From Blastocatellia bacterium (GTDB lineage Bacteria; Acidobacteriota; Blastocatellia; RBC074), in assembly GCA_038211695.1 (NCBI GenBank), contig JBBQVH010000022.1, positions 1,602 through 65,601 of the forward strand: a DNA stretch of 64,000 nt, in the 5' to 3' direction. The translations under genes were made by a program, and so were the position numbers. The notes under the pieces were generated by a model. The model was given only the letters and a program-made list of their open reading frames with translations, ran no database searches and was not told where the DNA came from. Position 1 is the first letter of the stretch. Each line of letters opens with the position of its first letter. Shown here piece by piece: positions 29,639-62,481 of this stretch.

Positions 29639-31583
29639 GATGCAATGACTCCTTATTCGTTTGGGCGCTGACTTGCAGTTTGATCCATTCAGGACAGGCA
29701 AGCTGTGATTGCTGAAGCTGAAGGTCTACCGAATACAATTTGCCGTCGCCGGTCTCTTCAATAACTTGAAAAGCGTGATCGCGGTAGAAGCTGTTTGCCG
29801 GTGCGTTCTTCTTGGTCGGCAGAAACCAGCCTTGCAATTGCCGCGCGCCGTTGTCTCGCGCTTCTTCAGCAAGAAAGCTGAGCAGCGCAGTTTCGACCGT
29901 GCGGCCAATGACGCGGCAGCTCAACAGAAACGCGTCAATTTCCCAAACGTTGCGCTCGGCTTTCGCAATCATCACGCCAACCAGGCCGTGATCGCCGAAG
30001 CGGTCTTTCACGCTGGCGGTATAAACGCGCCATTCGCTGTTGCCTGCGATCTCGGCGATTCGCTGCTCGCTGTAACGCCGCGTGGTCAAGTTGAACTGAT
30101 TGGTCTTCTGCGTCAGTTGCGCCGTGCGAGCCAGCGTCATCGGCGTAACCGGTTCAATCATGACTTCCTGTTCCAGCGAACGGTAAAAGTCTTCGATGGA
30201 AGTGGCACCGATTTGCAGTTCGGCGCGCTGGCGCTGTTCGGCGTAATGGCGTCCACGTTCGCGGTCTTCGGCGGAAAGCGTCAGTCGTTCAAACACGGCG
30301 CAGTTGCGCAAGGTTGCGGCATAATCTTTTGAATCTTTCGGCAATTCAATGACGGTGACTTCGGGCAGTTCCTGCCGCGCGCGCGCGCATTCCGCCGGGT
30401 TGTCGTCAATGAAAGCAATCGCATCCAAACCGATGTTCAGTTCCGTGGCGATCTCGCGCAGATTTTGCGCCTTGTCCTGCCAGTTGATGCGTAGCGCGGC
30501 GAAATGGGCAGGGCGCAGAATCATTCCCGGATGCGTTTCGATGGCGGTCAGCGCGTCGGCTTCGTTGTTCTTGCTGTTGACGGCCAGGATGATGCCGCGC
30601 CGGTGCAGGTCCAGCATCGCCCGTTGCAGCGATTGAAAGTCCGCGCCGGGATATTCAGCGCCCAACTTGATGCCTTCCATTCCGTCTTCGCCGATGACGC
30701 CGCCCCACAGCGTGTTGTCCAAATCCGTGACCAACGCTTTGCAAATTCTGCCGGTCAGCGGGTGCAGGAAGCGCAGCCATTCGCCAGTCAATTCGGTGAA
30801 GGCGTCCACAGTCATCGGCAATCGCATCGTTAACCAGCGGCGTTCGTCGTGCCAGCGCGAGCGCCCGAAGCGCGCCACCACCGCGTCGTAATCCAGAAAG
30901 TAGACGCCGCGATGTTCGCCCGCCAGCCGCTGCAATTCGCGGTTGATGGTTTGAATGGCCGTGGCTTGGCTGTGCGCGGTTTGTGAATCCAGCGCACCTT
31001 GCGCAGGGAAGAGAGGTGTCTCCAACCCGTGAAGGATCAGATGCGCCTGACTGTTTTTGCCGAAGGCTTCAATCCAGTCATTGAAACTTGCAGTGATGCG
31101 GTTGACTTCGGCGTTGACGTCGTCAGGTGAAAGCGAGGTGAACGAATGCCAAAGCTCCGGCGCGATGTCGCGCGTTTGAATCGCCAGTACCACAACGTCC
31201 GGCGAGAAACGATAAAGCTTGCTGTCGGGATTGAAAATCTCCTGCGGGTAGGCATTGAAATCGCCAACCTGCACGGTCAGATCAATGCCGCTGGCAAAGG
31301 CCCCGGCGCGCAGCAGCAGCGCCAACGGTTCCACCGTGAACGAACGCAGAATCGCCAACCGGCACAGCGTCATCGGCAATCGCTCGCGCAGCCTTTCGAA
31401 CCGCGCGATCACGAAGTTGGCCGTCGCGGGGGAAGGCTGCTGTTGCCACAACGCAATCAGCGCATCGCGCGCCGCAAACCATTCTTCGCGAGTGATGTAG
31501 TTTTCAATCTGTTGCCGTTGGTTTCGCGGATCAGGCATTTTGAGGTTTGAGATTCGGAATTTGGGATTTGGCTTTTCGATCAC
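29619..31583 (-). CDS. FkbH-like HAD-superfamily (subfamily IIIC) protein with C-terminal GNAT-like region
   Basis: VTDLDNTLWGGVIGEDG (HAD motif I in an FkbH/IIIC context). The GTG start at 31583 overlaps the upstream stop. The alternative ATG 31538 would leave the heptamer tract non-coding. Confidence 0.8.
   Translation of the reverse strand: MIEKPNPKFRISNLKMPDPRNQRQQIENYITREEWFAARDALIALWQQQPSPATANFVIARFERLRERLPMTLCRLAILRSFTVEPLALLLRAGAFASGIDLTVQVGDFNAYPQEIFNPDSKLYRFSPDVVVLAIQTRDIAPELWHSFTSLSPDDVNAEVNRITASFNDWIEAFGKNSQAHLILHGLETPLFPAQGALDSQTAHSQATAIQTINRELQRLAGEHRGVYFLDYDAVVARFGRSRWHDERRWLTMRLPMTVDAFTELTGEWLRFLHPLTGRICKALVTDLDNTLWGGVIGEDGMEGIKLGAEYPGADFQSLQRAMLDLHRRGIILAVNSKNNEADALTAIETHPGMILRPAHFAALRINWQDKAQNLREIATELNIGLDAIAFIDDNPAECARARQELPEVTVIELPKDSKDYAATLRNCAVFERLTLSAEDRERGRHYAEQRQRAELQIGATSIEDFYRSLEQEVMIEPVTPMTLARTAQLTQKTNQFNLTTRRYSEQRIAEIAGNSEWRVYTASVKDRFGDHGLVGVMIAKAERNVWEIDAFLLSCRVIGRTVETALLSFLAEEARDNGARQLQGWFLPTKKNAPANSFYRDHAFQVIEETGDGKLYSVDLQLQQSQLACPEWIKLQVSAQTNKESLHLEQLTV
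31541..31575. repeat. Degenerate 7-nt tandem repeat (5 units, TGRGATT-like; decayed GCGGATT family)
   Basis: TGAGGTT TGAGATT CGGAATT TGGGATT TGGCTTT. Confidence 0.6.
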
Positions 31584-47956: not shown

Positions 47957-48946
47957 ATGAAGTTATTCAGTAAGGCAAGAGGTCAGGCAACCAGGACGGC
48001 GGCTCGCGGCGCTGCCAGTGGAGTTGCCATCCTGATCGCTACCGTGCTCTGTGCTCTGGCCACGTCTGTCGTGGCATTTGGACAGGAAGCCAGGGGCGAC
48101 GAGAACTACGCGATCTTCGTATCGCAGCGCAACGGCGCCGCGGAACTTTATCTGATTGATCTTGGCACACACCAGGTCAGCCAATTGACCAACACCGGGC
48201 GAGGGCATTTGACGCCCTCCATCGCCGCCAATCGAGCCATTGTTTTCGCTTCGCGCGAAGGCTCGAATTACGAACTGTTCAGCGGATCCCTGGGCACTGC
48301 ATGGCGCACTCGCCGTCCGGTGATTACTGGGCTGAACCGGCTGACCATCAACACTTCCGACGAAACCGGAACCAGCATCACGCGCGAAGGCGATACGATG
48401 GCCTTCGTTTCGGGCAACGGTATTGAACTGATGACCGCCGGTGGCGGATCGCGTCAACTGGCCATCCCGGCAGGCGAGGAATCGAATGACTTTGCTCCGT
48501 CAATTTCGCCGGATGGCGCGCGCATCGCGTTTGTTTCGAATCGCGCGGGCGGCTACGACCTCTGGCTATACACCAAATCCACGGGGGATATTCGCCAGTT
48601 GACGCGCAGCGCCAAGGCGGGTGGCGGTGTCAGTTGGAGTGCGGATGGACGGCAGATCGTCTTCAACACAACGGCCACTGACAACGAAGCCAGCGGCGTC
48701 GCAATGGCGGATGCCGAAACCGGCGCCTTCCGTGTGTTGACCAATCAGGGCGACTTCAATGGTTCGCTATCGGCTCGCGGCAACCGGATGCTGTTTACCT
48801 CGACGCGTGACGGCGACGCGGAACTTTATCTGCTCAACGTCGGCAGCGGTTCGGTCGAACGCCTGACCATCAGCCCGGGGGCGGATGATGGAGCGGTCTT
48901 CGTGGCGGAACCGATTCGGCCAAGCCCGCCATCGCGCAGGCCATAA
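47957..48946 (+). CDS. TolB-like PD40/WD40-like beta-propeller repeat protein (secreted)
   Basis: Signal peptide present. PD40 motifs ELYLIDL..., PSISPDGARIAFVSNRAGGYDLWLY, FTSTRDGDAELYLLN. GGAGG SD. Confidence 0.8.
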   Translation: MKLFSKARGQATRTAARGAASGVAILIATVLCALATSVVAFGQEARGDENYAIFVSQRNGAAELYLIDLGTHQVSQLTNTGRGHLTPSIAANRAIVFASREGSNYELFSGSLGTAWRTRRPVITGLNRLTINTSDETGTSITREGDTMAFVSGNGIELMTAGGGSRQLAIPAGEESNDFAPSISPDGARIAFVSNRAGGYDLWLYTKSTGDIRQLTRSAKAGGGVSWSADGRQIVFNTTATDNEASGVAMADAETGAFRVLTNQGDFNGSLSARGNRMLFTSTRDGDAELYLLNVGSGSVERLTISPGADDGAVFVAEPIRPSPPSRRP

Positions 48947-49036
48947 ATTGACAATCGCTGGGCTGAGAAACAAATAAGCTGTGCGCTTTGACGACGGCCC
49001 AAATAAGTCTTTGGAAAGGACGCAAGGAAAATTCCC

Positions 49037-49480
49037 ATGCAGATGCAGACCAGTTCCCCGAAAATCGTGACGAAAGAGCAGGCTTCATTTACCGAACTGC
49101 TCGATAACCAAGAAGGCATCATTCTCGATCTTGAGAACCTTCATTACTACACCTTGAATGCGGCAGCGGTCTTCCTGTGGAAGCAGATGCGGTCAGGTTC
49201 GGCCAACACGGCGGAATCACTGAGCGCGGCGTTGGCGACAGCGTTCAACATCAACAGCGATCTGGCGGAGCTGGATTCGCGCGCATTCCTCGACGAACTC
49301 GAAGGCAATGCGTTGGTCTTCCACTCCGAGTTTGACGTGACAGTGATCAACCGGGCGCTGGCCGCCGCAAACGGCGAACTGCCCGCCTACGAACCACCGC
49401 AACTGAAACTGTCGAATTCACTGACGCAGGTTACGCTGTCGGGTTCTTCGACCATCGCAGTCGCGGCCATCGGCGGCTAA
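49037..49480 (+). CDS. PqqD-family protein (RiPP-recognition-element-like) with ~50-aa C-terminal extension
   Basis: EGIILDLENLHYYTLNAAAVFLWKQM ... AELDSRAFLDELEGNALV matches the PqqD/RRE winged-helix pattern. Confidence 0.75.
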   Translation: MQMQTSSPKIVTKEQASFTELLDNQEGIILDLENLHYYTLNAAAVFLWKQMRSGSANTAESLSAALATAFNINSDLAELDSRAFLDELEGNALVFHSEFDVTVINRALAAANGELPAYEPPQLKLSNSLTQVTLSGSSTIAVAAIGG

Positions 49481-49484
49481 ACAG

Positions 49485-49516
49485 ATTGCGGATTGCGGAT
49501 TGCGGATTGCGGATTC
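49485..49516. repeat. (GCGGATT)n heptamer tract, left arm of a 32-nt perfect inverted repeat
   Basis: ATTGCGGATTGCGGATTGCGGATTGCGGATTC, lying between the PqqD stop and the kinase-like start. Confidence 0.9.
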
Positions 49517-49560
49517 AAACCGTATATCCGCAATCCCTGCTCCACTCTTTGCACTCCTTT

Positions 49561-50634
49561 ATGCCTGCCGTTACGCTGGCGATTTGTGGCAATCAACTTT
49601 CCATTTCGGCGCGTGCGCCTCGCCTGATTCGCCTCTTCGCCGACTACTTTCGCTACTACAATCCCCAGATCATTTCCTCCACTGACACGCCGAATCCTTT
49701 GGCGGACAATCCACCTGCGCTCCAAATCGAACTGAAGATGCGCGATGCGTTACCGCCGCGCGAACGATTGATCCCGCCGTCGGCAGAACTCTTTTCGCAA
49801 ACGGGTATTGTCAGCTTGTGGCGGGAGACAGGGCGAAAAGAATCCGCAATCCGCAATCCGCAATCCGCAATTGCAGAAGTTGAGGGGAGGTTTTTCTTTC
49901 ACCTCGGGGTAGCGGCGTTTCGTGTGGATGTTGAAACTGGCCGCGCCATTGGCCTGGTCACGCCGCAGGCCATGGAATACCCGCACATTCTGGCCAATAC
50001 CTACACGCTGTTTGCGCTGTTGTTGATGCTGCGCACGCGGCGGCTCTATCACCTTCACGCGGCAGCCATCGTTTCGCCGGATGACAAGCTGTGGCTGATC
50101 TGTGGCGCGCAGCGGGCAGGGAAGACGACCTTAACGACAGCGTTGGGATTGGCGGGCTGGCGACCCATTTCGGATGATTCGCTATTGATCGGCAGAGATG
50201 AAGAATCCGCCTGGCTGACGCCGTTCAAAAAGTATTTTCACATCGGCGATGAACTGCTGCGTCGCTGGCCTCAGTTAGAAGGCATCCAGCGTCATCACCA
50301 ATATCTTGACCGCACCTGCACGGGCGGGCTGGAGTTTTTTGGCACGCGCGAATTGGCCGAAACGAAATTCCGCCGCATTGATCACATTGTCCTGCCGCAG
50401 ATCGTCAATGAACAAGTGAGTCGTGTGGAACCTTTGGCGCGCAGTGAAGCCATGCTGCGATTGGCCGAACAGAGCATGTTCTTTCAGCTTTGGCGCGACC
50501 ACACCGCCCGGCAATGGCAGTGGCTGAATGAATTGGCAGCAAACGCTAAGTGTCATCGTTTATTTTCAGGGGCTGACGCCTTGGCGGACCCGCACACCGC
50601 CGCGCGAATTCTGGACAGGCAGAGTGGAGATTGA
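49561..50634 (+). CDS. HPr-kinase-like (HprK-related) P-loop protein
   Basis: LHAAAIVSPDDKLWLICGAQRAGKTTLTTALGLAGWRPISDDS matches the HprK C-terminal pattern H-x..G-x-x-G-x-GK[ST]...DD. Start set at ATG 49561, because the track start at 49486 lies inside the heptamer tract. Confidence 0.7.
   Translation: MPAVTLAICGNQLSISARAPRLIRLFADYFRYYNPQIISSTDTPNPLADNPPALQIELKMRDALPPRERLIPPSAELFSQTGIVSLWRETGRKESAIRNPQSAIAEVEGRFFFHLGVAAFRVDVETGRAIGLVTPQAMEYPHILANTYTLFALLLMLRTRRLYHLHAAAIVSPDDKLWLICGAQRAGKTTLTTALGLAGWRPISDDSLLIGRDEESAWLTPFKKYFHIGDELLRRWPQLEGIQRHHQYLDRTCTGGLEFFGTRELAETKFRRIDHIVLPQIVNEQVSRVEPLARSEAMLRLAEQSMFFQLWRDHTARQWQWLNELAANAKCHRLFSGADALADPHTAARILDRQSGD
49840..49871. repeat. (AATCCGC)n heptamer tract, right arm of the inverted repeat, in-frame inside the HprK-like gene
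   Basis: GAATCCGCAATCCGCAATCCGCAATCCGCAAT is the exact reverse complement of 49485-49516. It encodes ...ESAIRNPQSAI... Confidence 0.9.
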
Positions 50635-59578: not shown

Positions 59579-62481
59579 CCCCAAATAAAACCATAACCCG
59601 CCGCCGCCTGTTTGTGCCGGAAGTCGTGCAGACTTCGGCGATGGATTGCGGCCCGGCTGCGCTGAAATGTTTGCTTGAAGGCTTTGGCGTCGGGGTCAGC
59701 TACGGCCGTTTGCGCGAAGCCTGCCAGACGGATGTGGACGGCACTTCAATTGACACGCTGGAAACCGTCGCCGTGCAGTTGGGGCTGGAAGCCGAGCAGG
59801 TAATGTTGCCCGAAGATCATTTACTGCTGCCCGAATCCGCAGCCTTGCCCGCCATCGTTGTCGTGCGCACGCCGAACGGCTCGACGCATTTCGTCGTCGT
59901 CTGGCGGCGTCACGGGCGATTCGTTCAAGTGATGGACCCGGCCACGGGGCGTCGCTGGATGAGCTGTGATGAACTGCGCGCTGAGTTGTACAAACATTCG
60001 ATGGCGATTCCGGCTGAAAGCTGGCGCGAGTGGGCAGGGTCGGAAAGTTTCCTGAATGGGCTGCGGCGGCGGATGAGCGATCTGGGCGTACCGAACAAGG
60101 AACTGATCGAACAGGCATTGGCCGATGCCGGTTGGCGCACGCTGGCGGCGTTGGACGCGGCGACGCGAATGGTTGAATCAATCGTGCGTTCGGGCGGCAT
60201 CAATCGAGGCAGCCAGGCCGCGCACGTGCTGAAGACTTTTTTCAATCGTGCCATTGGTGCAGTACCGGCTGATACGGAACCGGGAGCGGTAGCGACCGGG
60301 TTATCCGTGATGGACGACACCGAAGACACCCGGTCGCTACCGCTCCCGGTTCCGCACCACGCTGACATCATCCCCGCCGGTTACTGGATGGCGCGTCCCG
60401 CCAAACCCGGCGAAGACGGCGAAGAACAAGTCACGATGACCGGCGCGGTGCTGGTGCAGGTGCGCGGGCGGCGGGCGAAAGTTGAGGCTGATGCAAGCGG
60501 CGTCTCCGCGCTACCGCCCGATCTGGTTGCCGCGCTGGAAGAGAAGCCAACTCATCCTGGCCGCGAGTTGTTCAATCTGCTGCGCGCCGATAGCCTGCTT
60601 GCGCCGCTGGCCGTGCTGGCCGCGCTGGCGCTGGCGGCGGGCGGCGTGCTGATTGAAGCCGTGCTCTTTCAAGGGCTGTTCAACTTCAGCCAGAAGCTGA
60701 ACCTGACCGAACAGCGGTTGGGCGCGATGGCGGCGCTCATCGTTTTCAGTTTGGCGCTGTTCTGTCTGGAACTGCCGATTGTCGCGGGGCTGCTGCGCGC
60801 GGGGCGGCTGATGGAAGCGCGGTTACGGCTGGCGTTTCTGGAAAAGATTCCGCGCCTGGGCGACCGCTATTTTCAAAGCCGGTTGATTTCGGATATGGCC
60901 GACCGCAGCCACAGCGTGCAGGCGCTGCGAATGCTGCCAACATTGGGCGGACAGTTCTTGCGATTCACTTTTGAATTGGCGCTCACCTGCGCGGGGATTA
61001 TCTGGCTTGACCCGCGCGGCGCTTGGGTGGCGGTGACGGTGGCGGTGATTGCGGTGGCGCTGCCGATGGCGATGCAGTCTCGATTGACCGAACGCGATCT
61101 GCGCGTCCGCAGTCACAACGGCGCGCTCAGCCGGTTTTATCTGGATGCGCTGCTGGGCCTGGTCGCCGTTCGCACGCACGGCGCGGCAATGTCGTTGCGG
61201 CGCGAACACGAAAGTCTGCTGGTCGAATGGATGCGCGCCAGCTTCGGATTGCTGCGAACGGCGCTGACCATCGAAGCCGTCGAGGCGCTGACGGGTTTTG
61301 GTCTGGCGGCGTGGCTGTTGTTCGATCATCTGTCGCGCGGCGGCGACGCGGGCAGCGCGTTGCTGCTGGTTTATTGGGCGCTCAACCTGCCCGCGCTCGG
61401 CCAAGAGATCGCGCTGATTGCGCAGCAATACCCGGCTCAGCGCAACGTCACGCTGCGTGCGCTGGAACCGTTGGGCGCGCCTGAAGACGGAGAGACGGAG
61501 GGACGGAGCGACAGAGGGAAAGAGAGACAGCGGGACAGCAAGACGGATTTGCATTCACCTCTCCGTCCCTCCGTCTCAACTAGCGTCGCGCTCAAATTTG
61601 AAAACGTCAGCGTGCTGGCCGGCGGCCATTTGATTCTCAACGGGATTGATTTGGAGATTGAAGCCGGAAGCCACGTGGCAATTGTCGGTTCGTCGGGCGC
61701 GGGCAAATCGTCGTTCGTTGGGTTGCTGCTCGGATGGCATCGCGCGGCGGGAGGGCGCGTGCTGGTTGATGGCGAAGATTTGAACGGCGCGCGGTTGGCG
61801 CAGTTGCGCGGCGAAACGGCTTGGGTTGATCCGGCGATTCAACTGTGGAATCGGTCGCTGATTGACAACCTGCGCTACGGATCAAATGAAGAATCCGCAA
61901 TCGGCACTCTGAAGAATGGGCCGCAATCCGCAATCGAAGGGGCTGATCTGCGCCGCGTGCTGGAAAAACTACCCGATGGTTTGCAGACCAAATTAGGCGA
62001 AGGCGGCGCGCTGGTGTCAGGCGGCGAAGGGCAGCGCGTGCGGCTGGGGCGAGCAATGCTGCGCGGCGATGCGCGGCTGGTGATTTTGGACGAACCGTTT
62101 CGCGGGTTGGATCGCGACAAGCGGCGAGCGTTGATGCTGCGGGCGCGCCAGATGTGGCAGGGCGCGACGCTGCTGTGCATCACGCACGATGTCGGCGAGA
62201 CGATGAACTTCGAGCGCGTGCTGGTGGTCGAAGGCGGCAAGATTGTTGAAGACGACAGCCCGCGTTCGCTGGCCGCTCAGCCTGATTCGCGCTACAGCCA
62301 GTTGTTGCAAGCCGAAGACGCCGTACGCGCGGGGTTGTGGGCGAATGACGAATGGCGGCGCGTGCGGATGGATGGCGGGCGAGTGATCGAAACTCGCGGG
62401 CGAACGGAGTTGAGCACTGGCGGTCAGATGGAAGCGCGAGTGACTGTTCTGACTGATGAAAGGAGGCGGCGCGCAGGATGA
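59575..62481 (+). CDS. Peptidase-C39-domain ABC exporter (PCAT: peptidase/permease/ATPase), unusually long (968 aa)
   Basis: C39 catalytic context QTSAMDCGPAAL ... STHFVVVW ... MDPA. Six-TM ABC membrane domain. Walker A GSSGAGKSS, signature VSGGEGQR, Walker B LVILDEP. ATGA overlap with the HlyD-like gene. Confidence 0.9.
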   Translation: MTPNKTITRRRLFVPEVVQTSAMDCGPAALKCLLEGFGVGVSYGRLREACQTDVDGTSIDTLETVAVQLGLEAEQVMLPEDHLLLPESAALPAIVVVRTPNGSTHFVVVWRRHGRFVQVMDPATGRRWMSCDELRAELYKHSMAIPAESWREWAGSESFLNGLRRRMSDLGVPNKELIEQALADAGWRTLAALDAATRMVESIVRSGGINRGSQAAHVLKTFFNRAIGAVPADTEPGAVATGLSVMDDTEDTRSLPLPVPHHADIIPAGYWMARPAKPGEDGEEQVTMTGAVLVQVRGRRAKVEADASGVSALPPDLVAALEEKPTHPGRELFNLLRADSLLAPLAVLAALALAAGGVLIEAVLFQGLFNFSQKLNLTEQRLGAMAALIVFSLALFCLELPIVAGLLRAGRLMEARLRLAFLEKIPRLGDRYFQSRLISDMADRSHSVQALRMLPTLGGQFLRFTFELALTCAGIIWLDPRGAWVAVTVAVIAVALPMAMQSRLTERDLRVRSHNGALSRFYLDALLGLVAVRTHGAAMSLRREHESLLVEWMRASFGLLRTALTIEAVEALTGFGLAAWLLFDHLSRGGDAGSALLLVYWALNLPALGQEIALIAQQYPAQRNVTLRALEPLGAPEDGETEGRSDRGKERQRDSKTDLHSPLRPSVSTSVALKFENVSVLAGGHLILNGIDLEIEAGSHVAIVGSSGAGKSSFVGLLLGWHRAAGGRVLVDGEDLNGARLAQLRGETAWVDPAIQLWNRSLIDNLRYGSNEESAIGTLKNGPQSAIEGADLRRVLEKLPDGLQTKLGEGGALVSGGEGQRVRLGRAMLRGDARLVILDEPFRGLDRDKRRALMLRARQMWQGATLLCITHDVGETMNFERVLVVEGGKIVEDDSPRSLAAQPDSRYSQLLQAEDAVRAGLWANDEWRRVRMDGGRVIETRGRTELSTGGQMEARVTVLTDERRRRAG
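60275..60354. repeat. 27-bp perfect hairpin element inserted in-frame in the PCAT gene (C39-TMD linker)
   Basis: (C)GGAACCGGGAGCGGTAGCGACCGGGT ... ACCCGGTCGCTACCGCTCCCGGTTCC(G). It encodes ...TEPGAVATGLSVMDDTEDTRSLPLPVP... Confidence 0.85.
61492..61577. repeat. 17-bp perfect inverted repeat element in-frame in the PCAT gene (TMD-NBD linker)
   Basis: GAGACGGAGGGACGGAG (61492-61508) / CTCCGTCCCTCCGTCTC (61561-61577). It encodes ...ETEGRSDRGKERQRDSKTDLHSPLRPSVS... Confidence 0.85.
61892..61936. repeat. Interrupted (AATCCGC) heptamer-family tract in-frame in the PCAT nucleotide-binding domain
   Basis: AATCCGCAATC ... CCGCAATCCGCAATCG. It encodes ESAIGTLKNGPQSAI, compare ESAIRNPQSAI in the HprK-like gene. 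Confidence 0.7.

What the first reader, a model, noticed from the sequence alone, without database searches (positions are those of the whole stretch)
49485..49871. A 32-nt perfect inverted repeat made of (GCGGATT)4 heptamers brackets the start of the HprK-like gene, and one arm is translated
- ATTGCGGATTGCGGATTGCGGATTGCGGATTC at 49485-49516 lies in the intergenic spacer just after the PqqD stop. Its exact reverse complement at 49840-49871 lies in-frame inside the kinase-like ORF and encodes ESAIRNPQSAI.
- The two arms are 323 nt apart.
- If they pair in the mRNA, they would enclose the RBS, the start codon and the first ~93 codons.
- The same heptamer family recurs in-frame in the PCAT gene (61892-61936, ESAIGTLKNGPQSAI). 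It also recurs in decayed form at 31541-31575, between or overlapping two EPS genes.
- A 7-nt unit is not a multiple of 3, so copy-number slippage inside a gene would shift the frame. This makes a potential phase-variation switch.
Basis: seen in the sequence. Interest (0 to 1): 0.6.

Follow-up and report, generated by a model that had tools for sequence, protein, structure and literature searches.

The report
Two copies of a dispersed heptamer repeat
The perfect 32-base inverted repeat is real, but its arms are two independent copies of a roughly 32-base (GCGGATT)4 cassette scattered through this soil bacterium's genome; one builds a conserved hairpin between two genes, the other is translated as a floppy protein loop, so a dedicated switch is unlikely.

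Summary
Observation confirmed. (GCGGATT)4.6 sits at 49484-49515, and its exact reverse complement at 49840-49871 encodes ESAIRNPQSAI in frame.

The regulatory "bracket" reading is not supported.
- The genome (Blastocatellia, Acidobacteriota) holds 137 perfect tracts of this heptamer. Lengths peak sharply at 31-35 nt, with fixed ends.
- By my own rough gene calls, about 64% of tracts lie inside genes. They are read mostly as NPQSAIR.
- Intergenic tracts form convergent hairpins that start 0-12 nt after a stop codon.

The upstream arm has a local partner (49526-49536; -31 kcal/mol). All 23 orthologous spacers fold into a strong hairpin at this place, although the arm sequences differ between species.

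The genic arm lies in a hypervariable, low-confidence loop. Across orthologs its presence does not track the upstream arm type.

Slippage does occur. One ortholog is frameshifted by a 2-unit deletion exactly at the tract. But tracts are short, are also found beside atpG, and mostly keep about four units, so a contingency switch is unlikely.

The closest known relatives are the four-unit heptamer repeats of Xanthomonas and Nostoc.

Unexplained extras:
- The identical cassette is amplified in several other phyla.
- It stays perfect while flanking third codon positions are only ~55% identical.
- It is swapped for other heptamers at one fixed site in an amidohydrolase gene.

The parts
49037..49480 (+). 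PqqD-like gene (147 aa). Its stop codon TAA (49478-49480) lies 3 nt before the tract.
   Evidence: Pfam PqqD E 8e-12; translation
49484..49515 (+). Upstream heptamer cassette GATT(GCGGATT)4. It is the 5' arm of the intercistronic hairpin.
   Evidence: fixed-phase family member
49526..49536 (+). Short local 3' arm ATCCGCAATCC that pairs with the upstream cassette
   Evidence: Local fold -31.3 kcal/mol, z -4.8. A hairpin sits at the same place in all 23 orthologous spacers.
49561..50634 (+). Kinase-like gene (357 aa) with a P-loop GAQRAGKTT and a PEPCK/HprK-like fold
   Evidence: Weak TIGR04352 HprK_rel_A hit, E 1e-10, below the curated cut-off; AF2 pLDDT 89; Foldseek top hits are PEP carboxykinases, TMq about 0.5
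49840..49872 (+). In-frame 33-nt cassette in AATCCGC orientation, encoding ESAIRNPQSAI (residues 94-104). It lies in the loop between strands 84-90 and 109-114.
   Evidence: hypervariable alignment columns; low pLDDT 50-58
61892..61936 (+). Two short same-orientation remnants of the family (AATCCGCAATC and CCGCAATCCGCAATC) inside the PCAT gene

Best explanation
The two arms are independent copies of a dispersed, fixed-phase cassette of about 31-33 nt, (G)ATT(GCGGATT)4(G). This cassette is abundant in this Blastocatellia genome and its relatives.

Copy 1 (49484-49515) is the 5' arm of an intercistronic stem-loop. The stem-loop fills the 80-nt spacer between the pqqD-like and the kinase-like gene. 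It starts 3 nt after the stop codon and pairs locally with 49526-49536.

Copy 2 (49840-49872) is an in-frame 11-codon insert. It is tolerated in a disordered, hypervariable surface loop of the kinase-like protein.

Their perfect complementarity follows simply from both being copies of the same cassette in opposite orientation.

Shown here: family membership, the local hairpin, its positional conservation across orthologs, the loop location of the insert, and the lack of co-variation between the two sites.

Inferred, not shown: the hairpin acts on the RNA as an intercistronic element. Possible roles are 3'-end protection or partial termination for the upstream message, or masking of the kinase start region that is relieved by ribosomes terminating just upstream (translational coupling). 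Also inferred: the genic copy is a passenger at the protein level and only an occasional slippage hotspot at the DNA level.
For: Census of the whole genome:
- 137 perfect tracts of at least 14 nt.
- 79 of 115 period-7 repeats belong to this family, with lengths peaking at 31-35 nt.
- The ends are fixed in phase.

Pairs and position:
- Convergent pairs outnumber divergent ones about 20 to 1. Their loops are unrelated to one another.
- Intergenic tracts lie between co-directional genes in 37 of 43 cases.
- The GCGGATT arm starts 0-12 nt after a stop codon in 16 cases. The opposite orientation does so in 0 cases.

This locus:
- The local hairpin folds at -31.3 kcal/mol, z -4.8.
- All 23 orthologous spacers fold at -27 to -63 kcal/mol, z -3.5 to -11, with differing arm sequences. 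The most distant ortholog (G022) has a GC-rich stem followed by a T run, by eye terminator-like.
- The genic tract sits in hypervariable columns. It is present in some orthologs and absent in the closest relative.
- It lies in a low-pLDDT loop.
- Upstream arm type and genic tract occur in all four combinations across orthologs.

Other genes:
- Real enzymes and domains (CHAT, PSD1, Fer4, Amidohydro_1 and others) carry in-frame tracts.
- atpG has the tract 4 nt before its start codon.
Against: - Thermodynamically, the 421-nt minimum-energy fold does use the 33-bp long-range stem.
- In G000 the local 3' arm is only 11 nt, which leaves about 21 nt of the 5' arm free.
- Pairs of convergent tracts bracketing unique sequence are a general habit of this family: 20 pairs, 9 of them inside genes. 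The 325-nt pair could therefore come from the same unknown pair-making process rather than from coincidence.
- The proposed hairpin function (termination or coupling) is untested. No T-run terminator is detected here.
- Genic versus intergenic calls rest on my own ad hoc codon-score gene caller.
Confidence: 0.75

Rival explanations
1. Long-range RNA switch. The two arms pair in the mRNA and form a 32-bp duplex. This duplex sequesters the start region and the first 93 codons, or creates an RNase III site, and so regulates the kinase gene.
For: The duplex is perfect and dominates the minimum-energy fold of 49470-49890. In G000 the local partner is short, at 11 nt.
Against: There is no co-occurrence or covariation across orthologs. 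G015, G008 and G020 keep the genic tract with non-complementary upstream arms. G011, G005, G004 and G013 have the upstream arm without a genic tract. G014 has a perfect local 24-bp hairpin of its own. The local hairpin forms first during transcription, and translating ribosomes would open the coding arm.
Confidence: 0.1
2. Contingency (phase-variation) locus. Slippage of the 7-nt unit inside the gene switches the kinase ON and OFF at an adaptive, high frequency.
For: The unit length is not a multiple of 3. The G020 ortholog is 14 nt (2 units) shorter than its sister G008 and is frameshifted exactly at the tract, while the rest of the gene is intact. G001 shows a 21-nt in-frame loss.
Against: The tract has only about 4.4 units, and 50 of 79 family tracts are 31-36 nt; arrays above 36 nt are almost absent. 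Tracts also sit in or beside housekeeping and diverse enzyme genes (atpG, amidohydrolase, Fer4, PBP). Across about 11 tract-bearing orthologs the length is mostly unchanged. The G020 case could be an error in the metagenome assembly.
Confidence: 0.1
3. The two arms are one product of the unknown process that creates convergent tract pairs around unique sequence. In other words, the pair is a genuine unit, like the other 20 pairs, rather than two unrelated copies.
For: The bias is about 20 convergent to 1 divergent. Nine pairs lie wholly inside genes and bracket ancestral coding sequence, for example the PSD1 motif region.
Against: The other pairs have loops of 27-196 nt, whereas this one is 325 nt. 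The upstream arm already has its own partner. The two sites are occupied independently in orthologs.
Confidence: 0.05

Closest known systems
Dispersed heptameric repeats of Xanthomonas (GGGAATC) and Nostoc (GGGGAYT), Rehm et al. 2015 (PMC4692102)
   Same: Both are tandem heptamers dispersed genome-wide (about 180 sets per genome there, 137 here). [quoted passage not shown] Both have many convergent inverted pairs (70 of 186 there). Both lie preferentially between co-directional ORFs and close to the stop codon of the upstream ORF. In both, a phase-variation role is judged unlikely because the associated genes are unremarkable.
   Different: The unit here has only GG runs, so the G-quadruplex rationale for four units does not obviously apply. 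About 64% of copies here are inside genes and translated, against 7-11% there. The tract is conserved, or swapped for another heptamer, at orthologous sites. The identical unit recurs in several phyla.
TAACTGA heptamer direct repeats of Beggiatoaceae, Cyanobacteria and Bacteroidetes, MacGregor 2015 (PMC4679880); heptamer repeats near Nostoc start codons (bioRxiv 10.1101/2022.06.06.494920)
   Same: A specific heptamer repeated 2-6 times at more than 100 sites, often a few nucleotides upstream of start codons. The distribution across phyla is patchy and has no known transfer mechanism. Translational regulation has been proposed.
   Different: Those repeats are almost all intergenic direct repeats, with only one inverted set. 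Here inverted pairs and in-frame genic copies are common.
Rickettsia palindromic elements (RPE), in-frame selfish inserts; from my own knowledge (Ogata et al. 2000), not read here
   Same: Small repeats inserted in frame into unrelated protein genes. They add peptide segments in tolerated surface positions.
   Different: RPEs are 100-150-bp elements conserved along their whole length. Here only the ~32-nt heptamer arms are shared, and the loops are unique.
REP/REPIN elements mobilised by RAYT transposases (PMC3116915 listed; not read)
   Same: Short extragenic palindromic repeats occurring as inverted doublets of fixed polarity.
   Different: The four Y1/RAYT-like genes of this genome are flanked by other palindromes, and no heptamer tract lies within 6 kb of any of them. 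REPs are extragenic and are not tandem heptamers.

Membership tests
Dispersed four-unit heptamer SSR families (Xanthomonas/Nostoc type) | Perfect or near-perfect tandem heptamers at about 100 or more dispersed sites | tested here: met
   137 perfect tracts of at least 14 nt. 79 of 115 period-7 repeats belong to this family. Periods 5, 6 and 8 have only 16, 32 and 24 repeats.
Dispersed four-unit heptamer SSR families (Xanthomonas/Nostoc type) | Preference for four units | tested here: met
   50 of 79 tracts are 31-36 nt, with fixed ends (G)ATT(GCGGATT)4(G). The same holds for copies from other phyla (though those were selected to be at least 28 nt).
Dispersed four-unit heptamer SSR families (Xanthomonas/Nostoc type) | Frequent convergent inverted pairs, located near the stop codon of the upstream ORF between co-directional genes | tested here: met
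   20 convergent pairs against about 1 divergent. 37 of 43 intergenic tracts lie between co-directional genes. 16 arms start 0-12 nt after a stop codon.
Dispersed four-unit heptamer SSR families (Xanthomonas/Nostoc type) | Strong bias to non-coding DNA (about 90% intergenic) | tested here: not met
   88 of 137 tracts are genic by my gene caller. Ten cases were checked with Pfam, and in most the domains span or flank the tract.
Dispersed four-unit heptamer SSR families (Xanthomonas/Nostoc type) | G3 or longer runs able to form a G-quadruplex | tested here: not met
   The unit GCGGATT has only GG runs (sequence). Biophysical behaviour was not testable here.
SSR contingency (phase-variable) locus | Long repeat array and unit-number polymorphism giving ON/OFF frames | tested here: inconclusive
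   The tract has only 4.4 units. One frameshifted ortholog (G020, -14 nt) and one in-frame 21-nt loss (G001) were found among about 11 tract-bearing orthologs. No population data were available.
SSR contingency (phase-variable) locus | Restriction to surface or host-interaction genes | tested here: not met
   Tracts lie in amidohydrolase, Fer4/CCG, PBP, CHAT and PSD1 genes, and beside atpG.
REP/REPIN-RAYT | The repeats flank a cognate Y1 (RAYT) transposase gene | tested here: not met
   Seven PF01797 matches were found. None has a heptamer tract within 6 kb except one weak match, where the tract is 4 kb away. The flanks of the four good copies carry other palindromes.
MITE or RPE-like palindromic element | The whole element, including its interior, is conserved between copies | tested here: not met
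   The loops of the 20 pairs share no similarity (blastn-short, E<1e-3).
Intrinsic terminator | GC-rich hairpin followed by a T run | tested here: not met
   No terminator-like site at 48900-50000. Only the distant ortholog G022 shows a GC-rich stem followed by a T run, as read by eye from the sequence.
HprK-related kinase A (TIGR04352), identity of the host gene | Score above the curated cut-off | tested here: not met
   40.7 bits against a cut-off of 200, covering residues 161-334 only. The fold is PEPCK/HprK-like.

The most novel reading that the evidence does not exclude
The ~31-33-nt heptamer cassettes are not passive microsatellites. They are actively written or maintained elements, produced by templated insertion or a gene-conversion-like process of unknown machinery.

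Five observations point this way:
- The identical (GCGGATT)4 cassette, with the same four-unit length, is amplified in Acidobacteriota, Chloroflexia (388 21-mer hits in one MAG), Bacteroidota and Planctomycetota. It also occurs in at least four further groups.
- It stays perfect at an orthologous site while neighbouring third codon positions are only ~55% identical.
- At one fixed site in a conserved amidohydrolase it is replaced wholesale by other heptamer families (AACTCCC, AAATCTC) or by a GC palindrome of equal length. This pattern is incongruent with the gene tree.
- Pairs have a fixed polarity.
- In genes the AATCCGC strand is strongly preferred as the sense strand.

The four-unit rule would then reflect the machinery, not G-quadruplex formation.
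Probability: 0.3. Interest if true: 0.75.

Novelty: new member of a known kind. Interest (0 to 1): 0.5.

Why it matters
For this locus, the result removes an attractive but unsupported regulatory story. It replaces that story with a testable one: a positionally conserved intercistronic hairpin plus a tolerated in-frame insert.

More broadly, the four-unit, convergent-pair heptamer repeat described in Xanthomonas and Nostoc also exists in soil Acidobacteria, and with the identical unit in several other phyla. Here it has no G3 tracts, which weakens the G-quadruplex explanation for the four-unit preference.

The family also invades coding regions in frame. It therefore adds NPQSAIR-type loops to many proteins, can mislead gene callers (four database homologs carry N-terminal extensions reading NPQSAIR-like peptide) and breaks assemblies.

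The nucleotide-level conservation and the cassette switching at fixed sites are not explained by ordinary slippage. They point to an unknown homogenising or writing process that is worth finding.

Tried and rejected
- **RAYT/REPIN origin.** The Y1 transposase genes are not associated with the tracts.
- **MITE with a conserved core.** The loops of the pairs are unrelated.
- **Known RNA family.** No Rfam match at E<=1 in 49000-50100.
- **Canonical terminator or promoter in the spacer.** No terminator found. The only promoter-like site lies inside the gene at 49682.
- **Covariation test of the long-range duplex across orthologs.** No co-occurrence.
- **Literature.** Searches for the unit and for the encoded peptides (NPQSAIRNPQ, IADCGLRIAD and others) found nothing relevant. 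The single hit to a 13-mer is an unrelated cavefish paper, and the peptide strings occur nowhere.
- **Ancestry of the genic tract in G000.** In the gene tree G000 is sister to the tract-less G013 and lies outside the main tract-bearing clade. Loss, regain and recombination could not be told apart.
- **First strict codon-score classification.** It was too noisy near variable loops. I replaced it with a simple self-trained gene caller.

Full report
**1. Observation**

The sequence is as described.
- GATT(GCGGATT)4 occupies 49484-49515.
- The 32-nt arm 49485-49516 has its exact reverse complement at 49840-49871, 323 nt downstream.
- TRF reports 4.6 and 4.4 perfect copies.
- The 14-mer occurs 7 times in the window against 0.16 expected.
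- The PqqD-like ORF (Pfam PqqD, E 8e-12) ends with TAA at 49478-49480.
- The kinase-like ORF starts at ATG 49561, and its residues 94-104 are ESAIRNPQSAI.

With it, the spacer folds on its own at -31.3 kcal/mol (z -4.8).

**2. A dispersed family, not a local device**

The window's genome is 7.84 Mb in 237 contigs, 55.5% GC. Homologs of the kinase-like protein are all from Blastocatellia/Acidobacteriota metagenome-assembled genomes (MAGs).

Abundance and shape:
- The genome contains 137 perfect tracts of at least 14 nt of this heptamer.
- Period-7 perfect repeats with at least 3 copies number 115. Periods 5, 6, 8 and 9 have 16, 32, 24 and 36.
- 79 of the 115 belong to this family. Their lengths peak at 31-35 nt, and only two exceed 36 nt.
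- The ends are in a fixed phase, (G)ATT(GCGGATT)4(G).

Pairs:
- Convergent pairs (GCGGATT...AATCCGC) with gaps of 27-325 nt number 20, against about one divergent pair.
- Their loops share no similarity, so this is not a MITE with a conserved core.

Position relative to genes, using a self-trained codon-score gene caller (5984 genes, 85% coding density; it reproduces the pqqD and kinase coordinates):
- 88 tracts are genic, 43 intergenic and 6 overlap gene ends. Random positions are 82% genic and 13% intergenic.
- Genic tracts are read as AATCCGC (NPQSAIR) 65 times and as GCGGATT (ADCGLRI) 23 times.
- Intergenic tracts lie between co-directional genes in 37 of 43 cases.
- The GCGGATT arm begins 0-12 nt after the upstream stop codon in 16 cases. 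The opposite orientation never does.
- The AATCCGC arm lies 2-30 nt before the next start codon.

A Pfam check of ten tract-bearing ORFs shows that, in most, real domains span or flank the tract. These include CHAT, PSD1/PSCyt, a 4Fe-4S dicluster, Amidohydro_1, DUF7948, DUF1501 and PBP transpeptidase plus SpoIID. atpG has a 36-nt tract ending 4 nt before its ATG.

**3. The upstream arm is part of a conserved local hairpin**

I fetched the orthologous pqqD-kinase loci from 24 related genomes.
- In all 23 usable spacers the sequence between the stop codon and the ATG folds into a strong hairpin. Energies are -27 to -63 kcal/mol, and z is -3.5 to -11 against shuffles.
- The arms differ between species. 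Most are the GCGGATT type. G008, G009, G020 and G003 have the GCGGAAT type. G015, G017 and G023 have purine-rich repeats. G024 has an AT-rich stem. G022 has a GC-rich stem followed by a T run, which by eye looks like a classical terminator.

So position and structure are conserved while sequence is not. That points to a role for the local stem-loop at the RNA or DNA level.

In G000 no T-run terminator is detected, and there is no Rfam match. My inference is that the hairpin acts as an intercistronic element. It could protect the 3' end of the upstream message or cause partial termination. Alternatively it could mask the kinase start region, with ribosomes terminating 3 nt upstream opening it. 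None of this is shown.

**4. The genic arm is an in-frame passenger in a variable loop**

- In an alignment of 28 homologs the tract falls in hypervariable columns. Several homologs carry SAIRNPQSAI there. The closest homolog (85% identical) and others do not.
- An AlphaFold model (mean pLDDT 89) places residues 94-104 in a low-confidence loop (pLDDT about 50-58) between strands 84-90 and 109-114.
- The fold is PEPCK/HprK-like. The NCBIfam HprK_rel_A hit is weak.

**5. Test of the bracket idea**

The 421-nt minimum-energy fold does use the 33-bp long-range stem, so pairing is possible in principle. Across orthologs, however, the two sites are occupied independently.
- G015, G008 and G020 keep an AATCCGC genic tract behind non-complementary upstream arms.
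- G011, G005, G004 and G013 have the GCGGATT hairpin but no genic tract.
- G014 has a perfect local hairpin as well as the genic tract.

There is therefore no evidence that the long-range pairing is selected.

**6. Test of the phase-variation idea**

Slippage does occur.
- The G020 ortholog is 14 nt (two units) shorter than its sister G008 and is frameshifted exactly at the tract, with the rest of the gene intact.
- G001 retains 10 nt, consistent with a 21-nt in-frame loss.

Against a contingency role:
- Tracts have only about four units.
- Longer arrays are nearly absent.
- Hosts include housekeeping and diverse enzyme genes.
- Most orthologs keep the same length.

The G020 case may also be an error in the metagenome assembly.

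**7. Comparison with known systems**

Rehm et al. 2015 (PMC4692102) described GGGAATC repeats in Xanthomonas and GGGGAYT repeats in Nostoc.
- They found about 180 sets per genome.
- 70-75 sets were in convergent pairs.
- The sets lay between co-directional ORFs, close to the upstream ORF.
- They found no link to phase variation.

This family matches all of those features. It differs in two ways: it lacks G3 runs, and it is mostly genic. MacGregor 2015 (PMC4679880) described TAACTGA repeats upstream of start codons with a patchy cross-phylum distribution. I found no paper naming the GCGGATT family or its peptides.

**8. Beyond the finding (unexplained)**

(a) Cross-phylum spread.
- The exact 28-mer (GCGGATT)4 occurs in more than 119 stretches from many groups. 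These are Acidobacteriota, Planctomycetota, Verrucomicrobiota, Bacteroidota, Gemmatimonadota, Chloroflexia, Binatia, Armatimonadota and others.
- Lengths again cluster at 31-34 nt, and convergent partners are common.
- A Chloroflexia MAG has 388 hits of the 21-mer, a Saprospiraceae MAG has 49 and a Planctomycetota MAG has 31.
- In 340 kb of the Chloroflexia genome, genic tracts are AATCCGC-sense 17 to 2.
- Among relatives, the 21-mer is in 20 of 21 same-genus genomes and in one other family of the class. It was not found in five other families searched.

(b) Nucleotide-level conservation.
- In the kinase loop, a 26-nt core of the tract is identical in five species.
- In those species the flanking conserved blocks are 69-76% identical, and third codon positions are about 55% identical.

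(c) Cassette switching.
- In a conserved amidohydrolase (orthologs 85-92% identical by amino acid), the same 11-codon site holds different sequences in different species.
- The alternatives are AATCCGC x4.4, AACTCCC x4.4, AAATCTC-type tracts, or a 36-nt GC palindrome.
- This pattern is incongruent with the gene tree. For example, G008 is sister to G014 at 96% support but carries a different cassette.
- AACTCCC is a second dispersed family. It is present in 12 of 21 same-genus genomes and absent from G000.

Ordinary slippage does not explain these three points. The four Y1/RAYT-like genes are not linked to the tracts.

**Caveats**

- Gene calls are my own rough ones.
- Most comparison genomes are MAGs.
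- G023 is unpublished. Three points rest on it: its purine-rich upstream hairpin, its count of 70 hits of the 21-mer, and the many contig-end hits.
- Related species are not independent samples.

Noticed in passing
G000:C161:14084-15406 (L044/L185) and orthologs L186-L198: A conserved amidohydrolase carries an 11-codon cassette at one fixed site. Its sequence differs wholesale between species: AATCCGC, AACTCCC or AAATCTC tandem heptamers, or a 36-nt GC palindrome. The pattern is incongruent with the gene tree.
   Followed up: partly
L021/L027 (G020:C87, ortholog of the kinase gene): The ortholog is frameshifted exactly at the heptamer tract by a 14-nt (2-unit) shortening relative to its sister G008. 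The rest of the gene is intact. This is either natural slippage or an assembly error.
   Followed up: partly
G000:C10:43586-43621 and atpG at C10:43632-44516 (L203): A 36-nt (AATCCGC)5 tract ends 4 nt before the atpG start codon.
   Followed up: partly
G000:C39:8548-11247 (L042): A single 899-aa ORF joins a PBP transpeptidase domain (63-341) to a SpoIID domain (410-495). A convergent heptamer pair lies exactly in the linker. This may be a gene fusion across a stop-free hairpin.
   Followed up: no
G000 contigs C15, C47, C96, C101, C147: Five DUF1553/PSD1 paralogs carry NPQSAIRNPQS at the same position. In three (C47, C96, C147) the displayed peptide shows it directly after an ATYRQSS-type motif. 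C96 also has a second, inverted tract, so the conserved motif is bracketed.
   Followed up: partly
L047, L097, L106 and other loci L046-L125; genomes G041-G045: The identical (GCGGATT)4 cassette is amplified in MAGs of other phyla: Chloroflexia (388 hits of the 21-mer), Saprospiraceae (49) and Planctomycetota (31).
   Followed up: partly
G000:C21:48977-49321, C45:39639-39980, C12:78222-78557, C2:74365-74712 (L029-L032): Four Y1 (IS200/RAYT-like) transposase genes are flanked by other REP-like palindromes, for example CGTCGCTACGCGACG and CTGAAGGACTGGGCT. These are a separate repeat system in the same genome.
   Followed up: no
window 31541-31575: A loose period-7 run (TTTGRGA-like, 73% matches). 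It is not demonstrably the GCGGATT family and may belong to another heptamer family such as AAATCTC, which has 8 tracts in the genome.
   Followed up: partly
L007 (G012) kinase loop; proteins P0006 and P0029: The same protein loop holds other simple repeats in other species: GGAGACG-like (ETGRQGYGETE), or tract remnants split by secondary inserts. The loop is a recurrent landing or expansion site.
   Followed up: no
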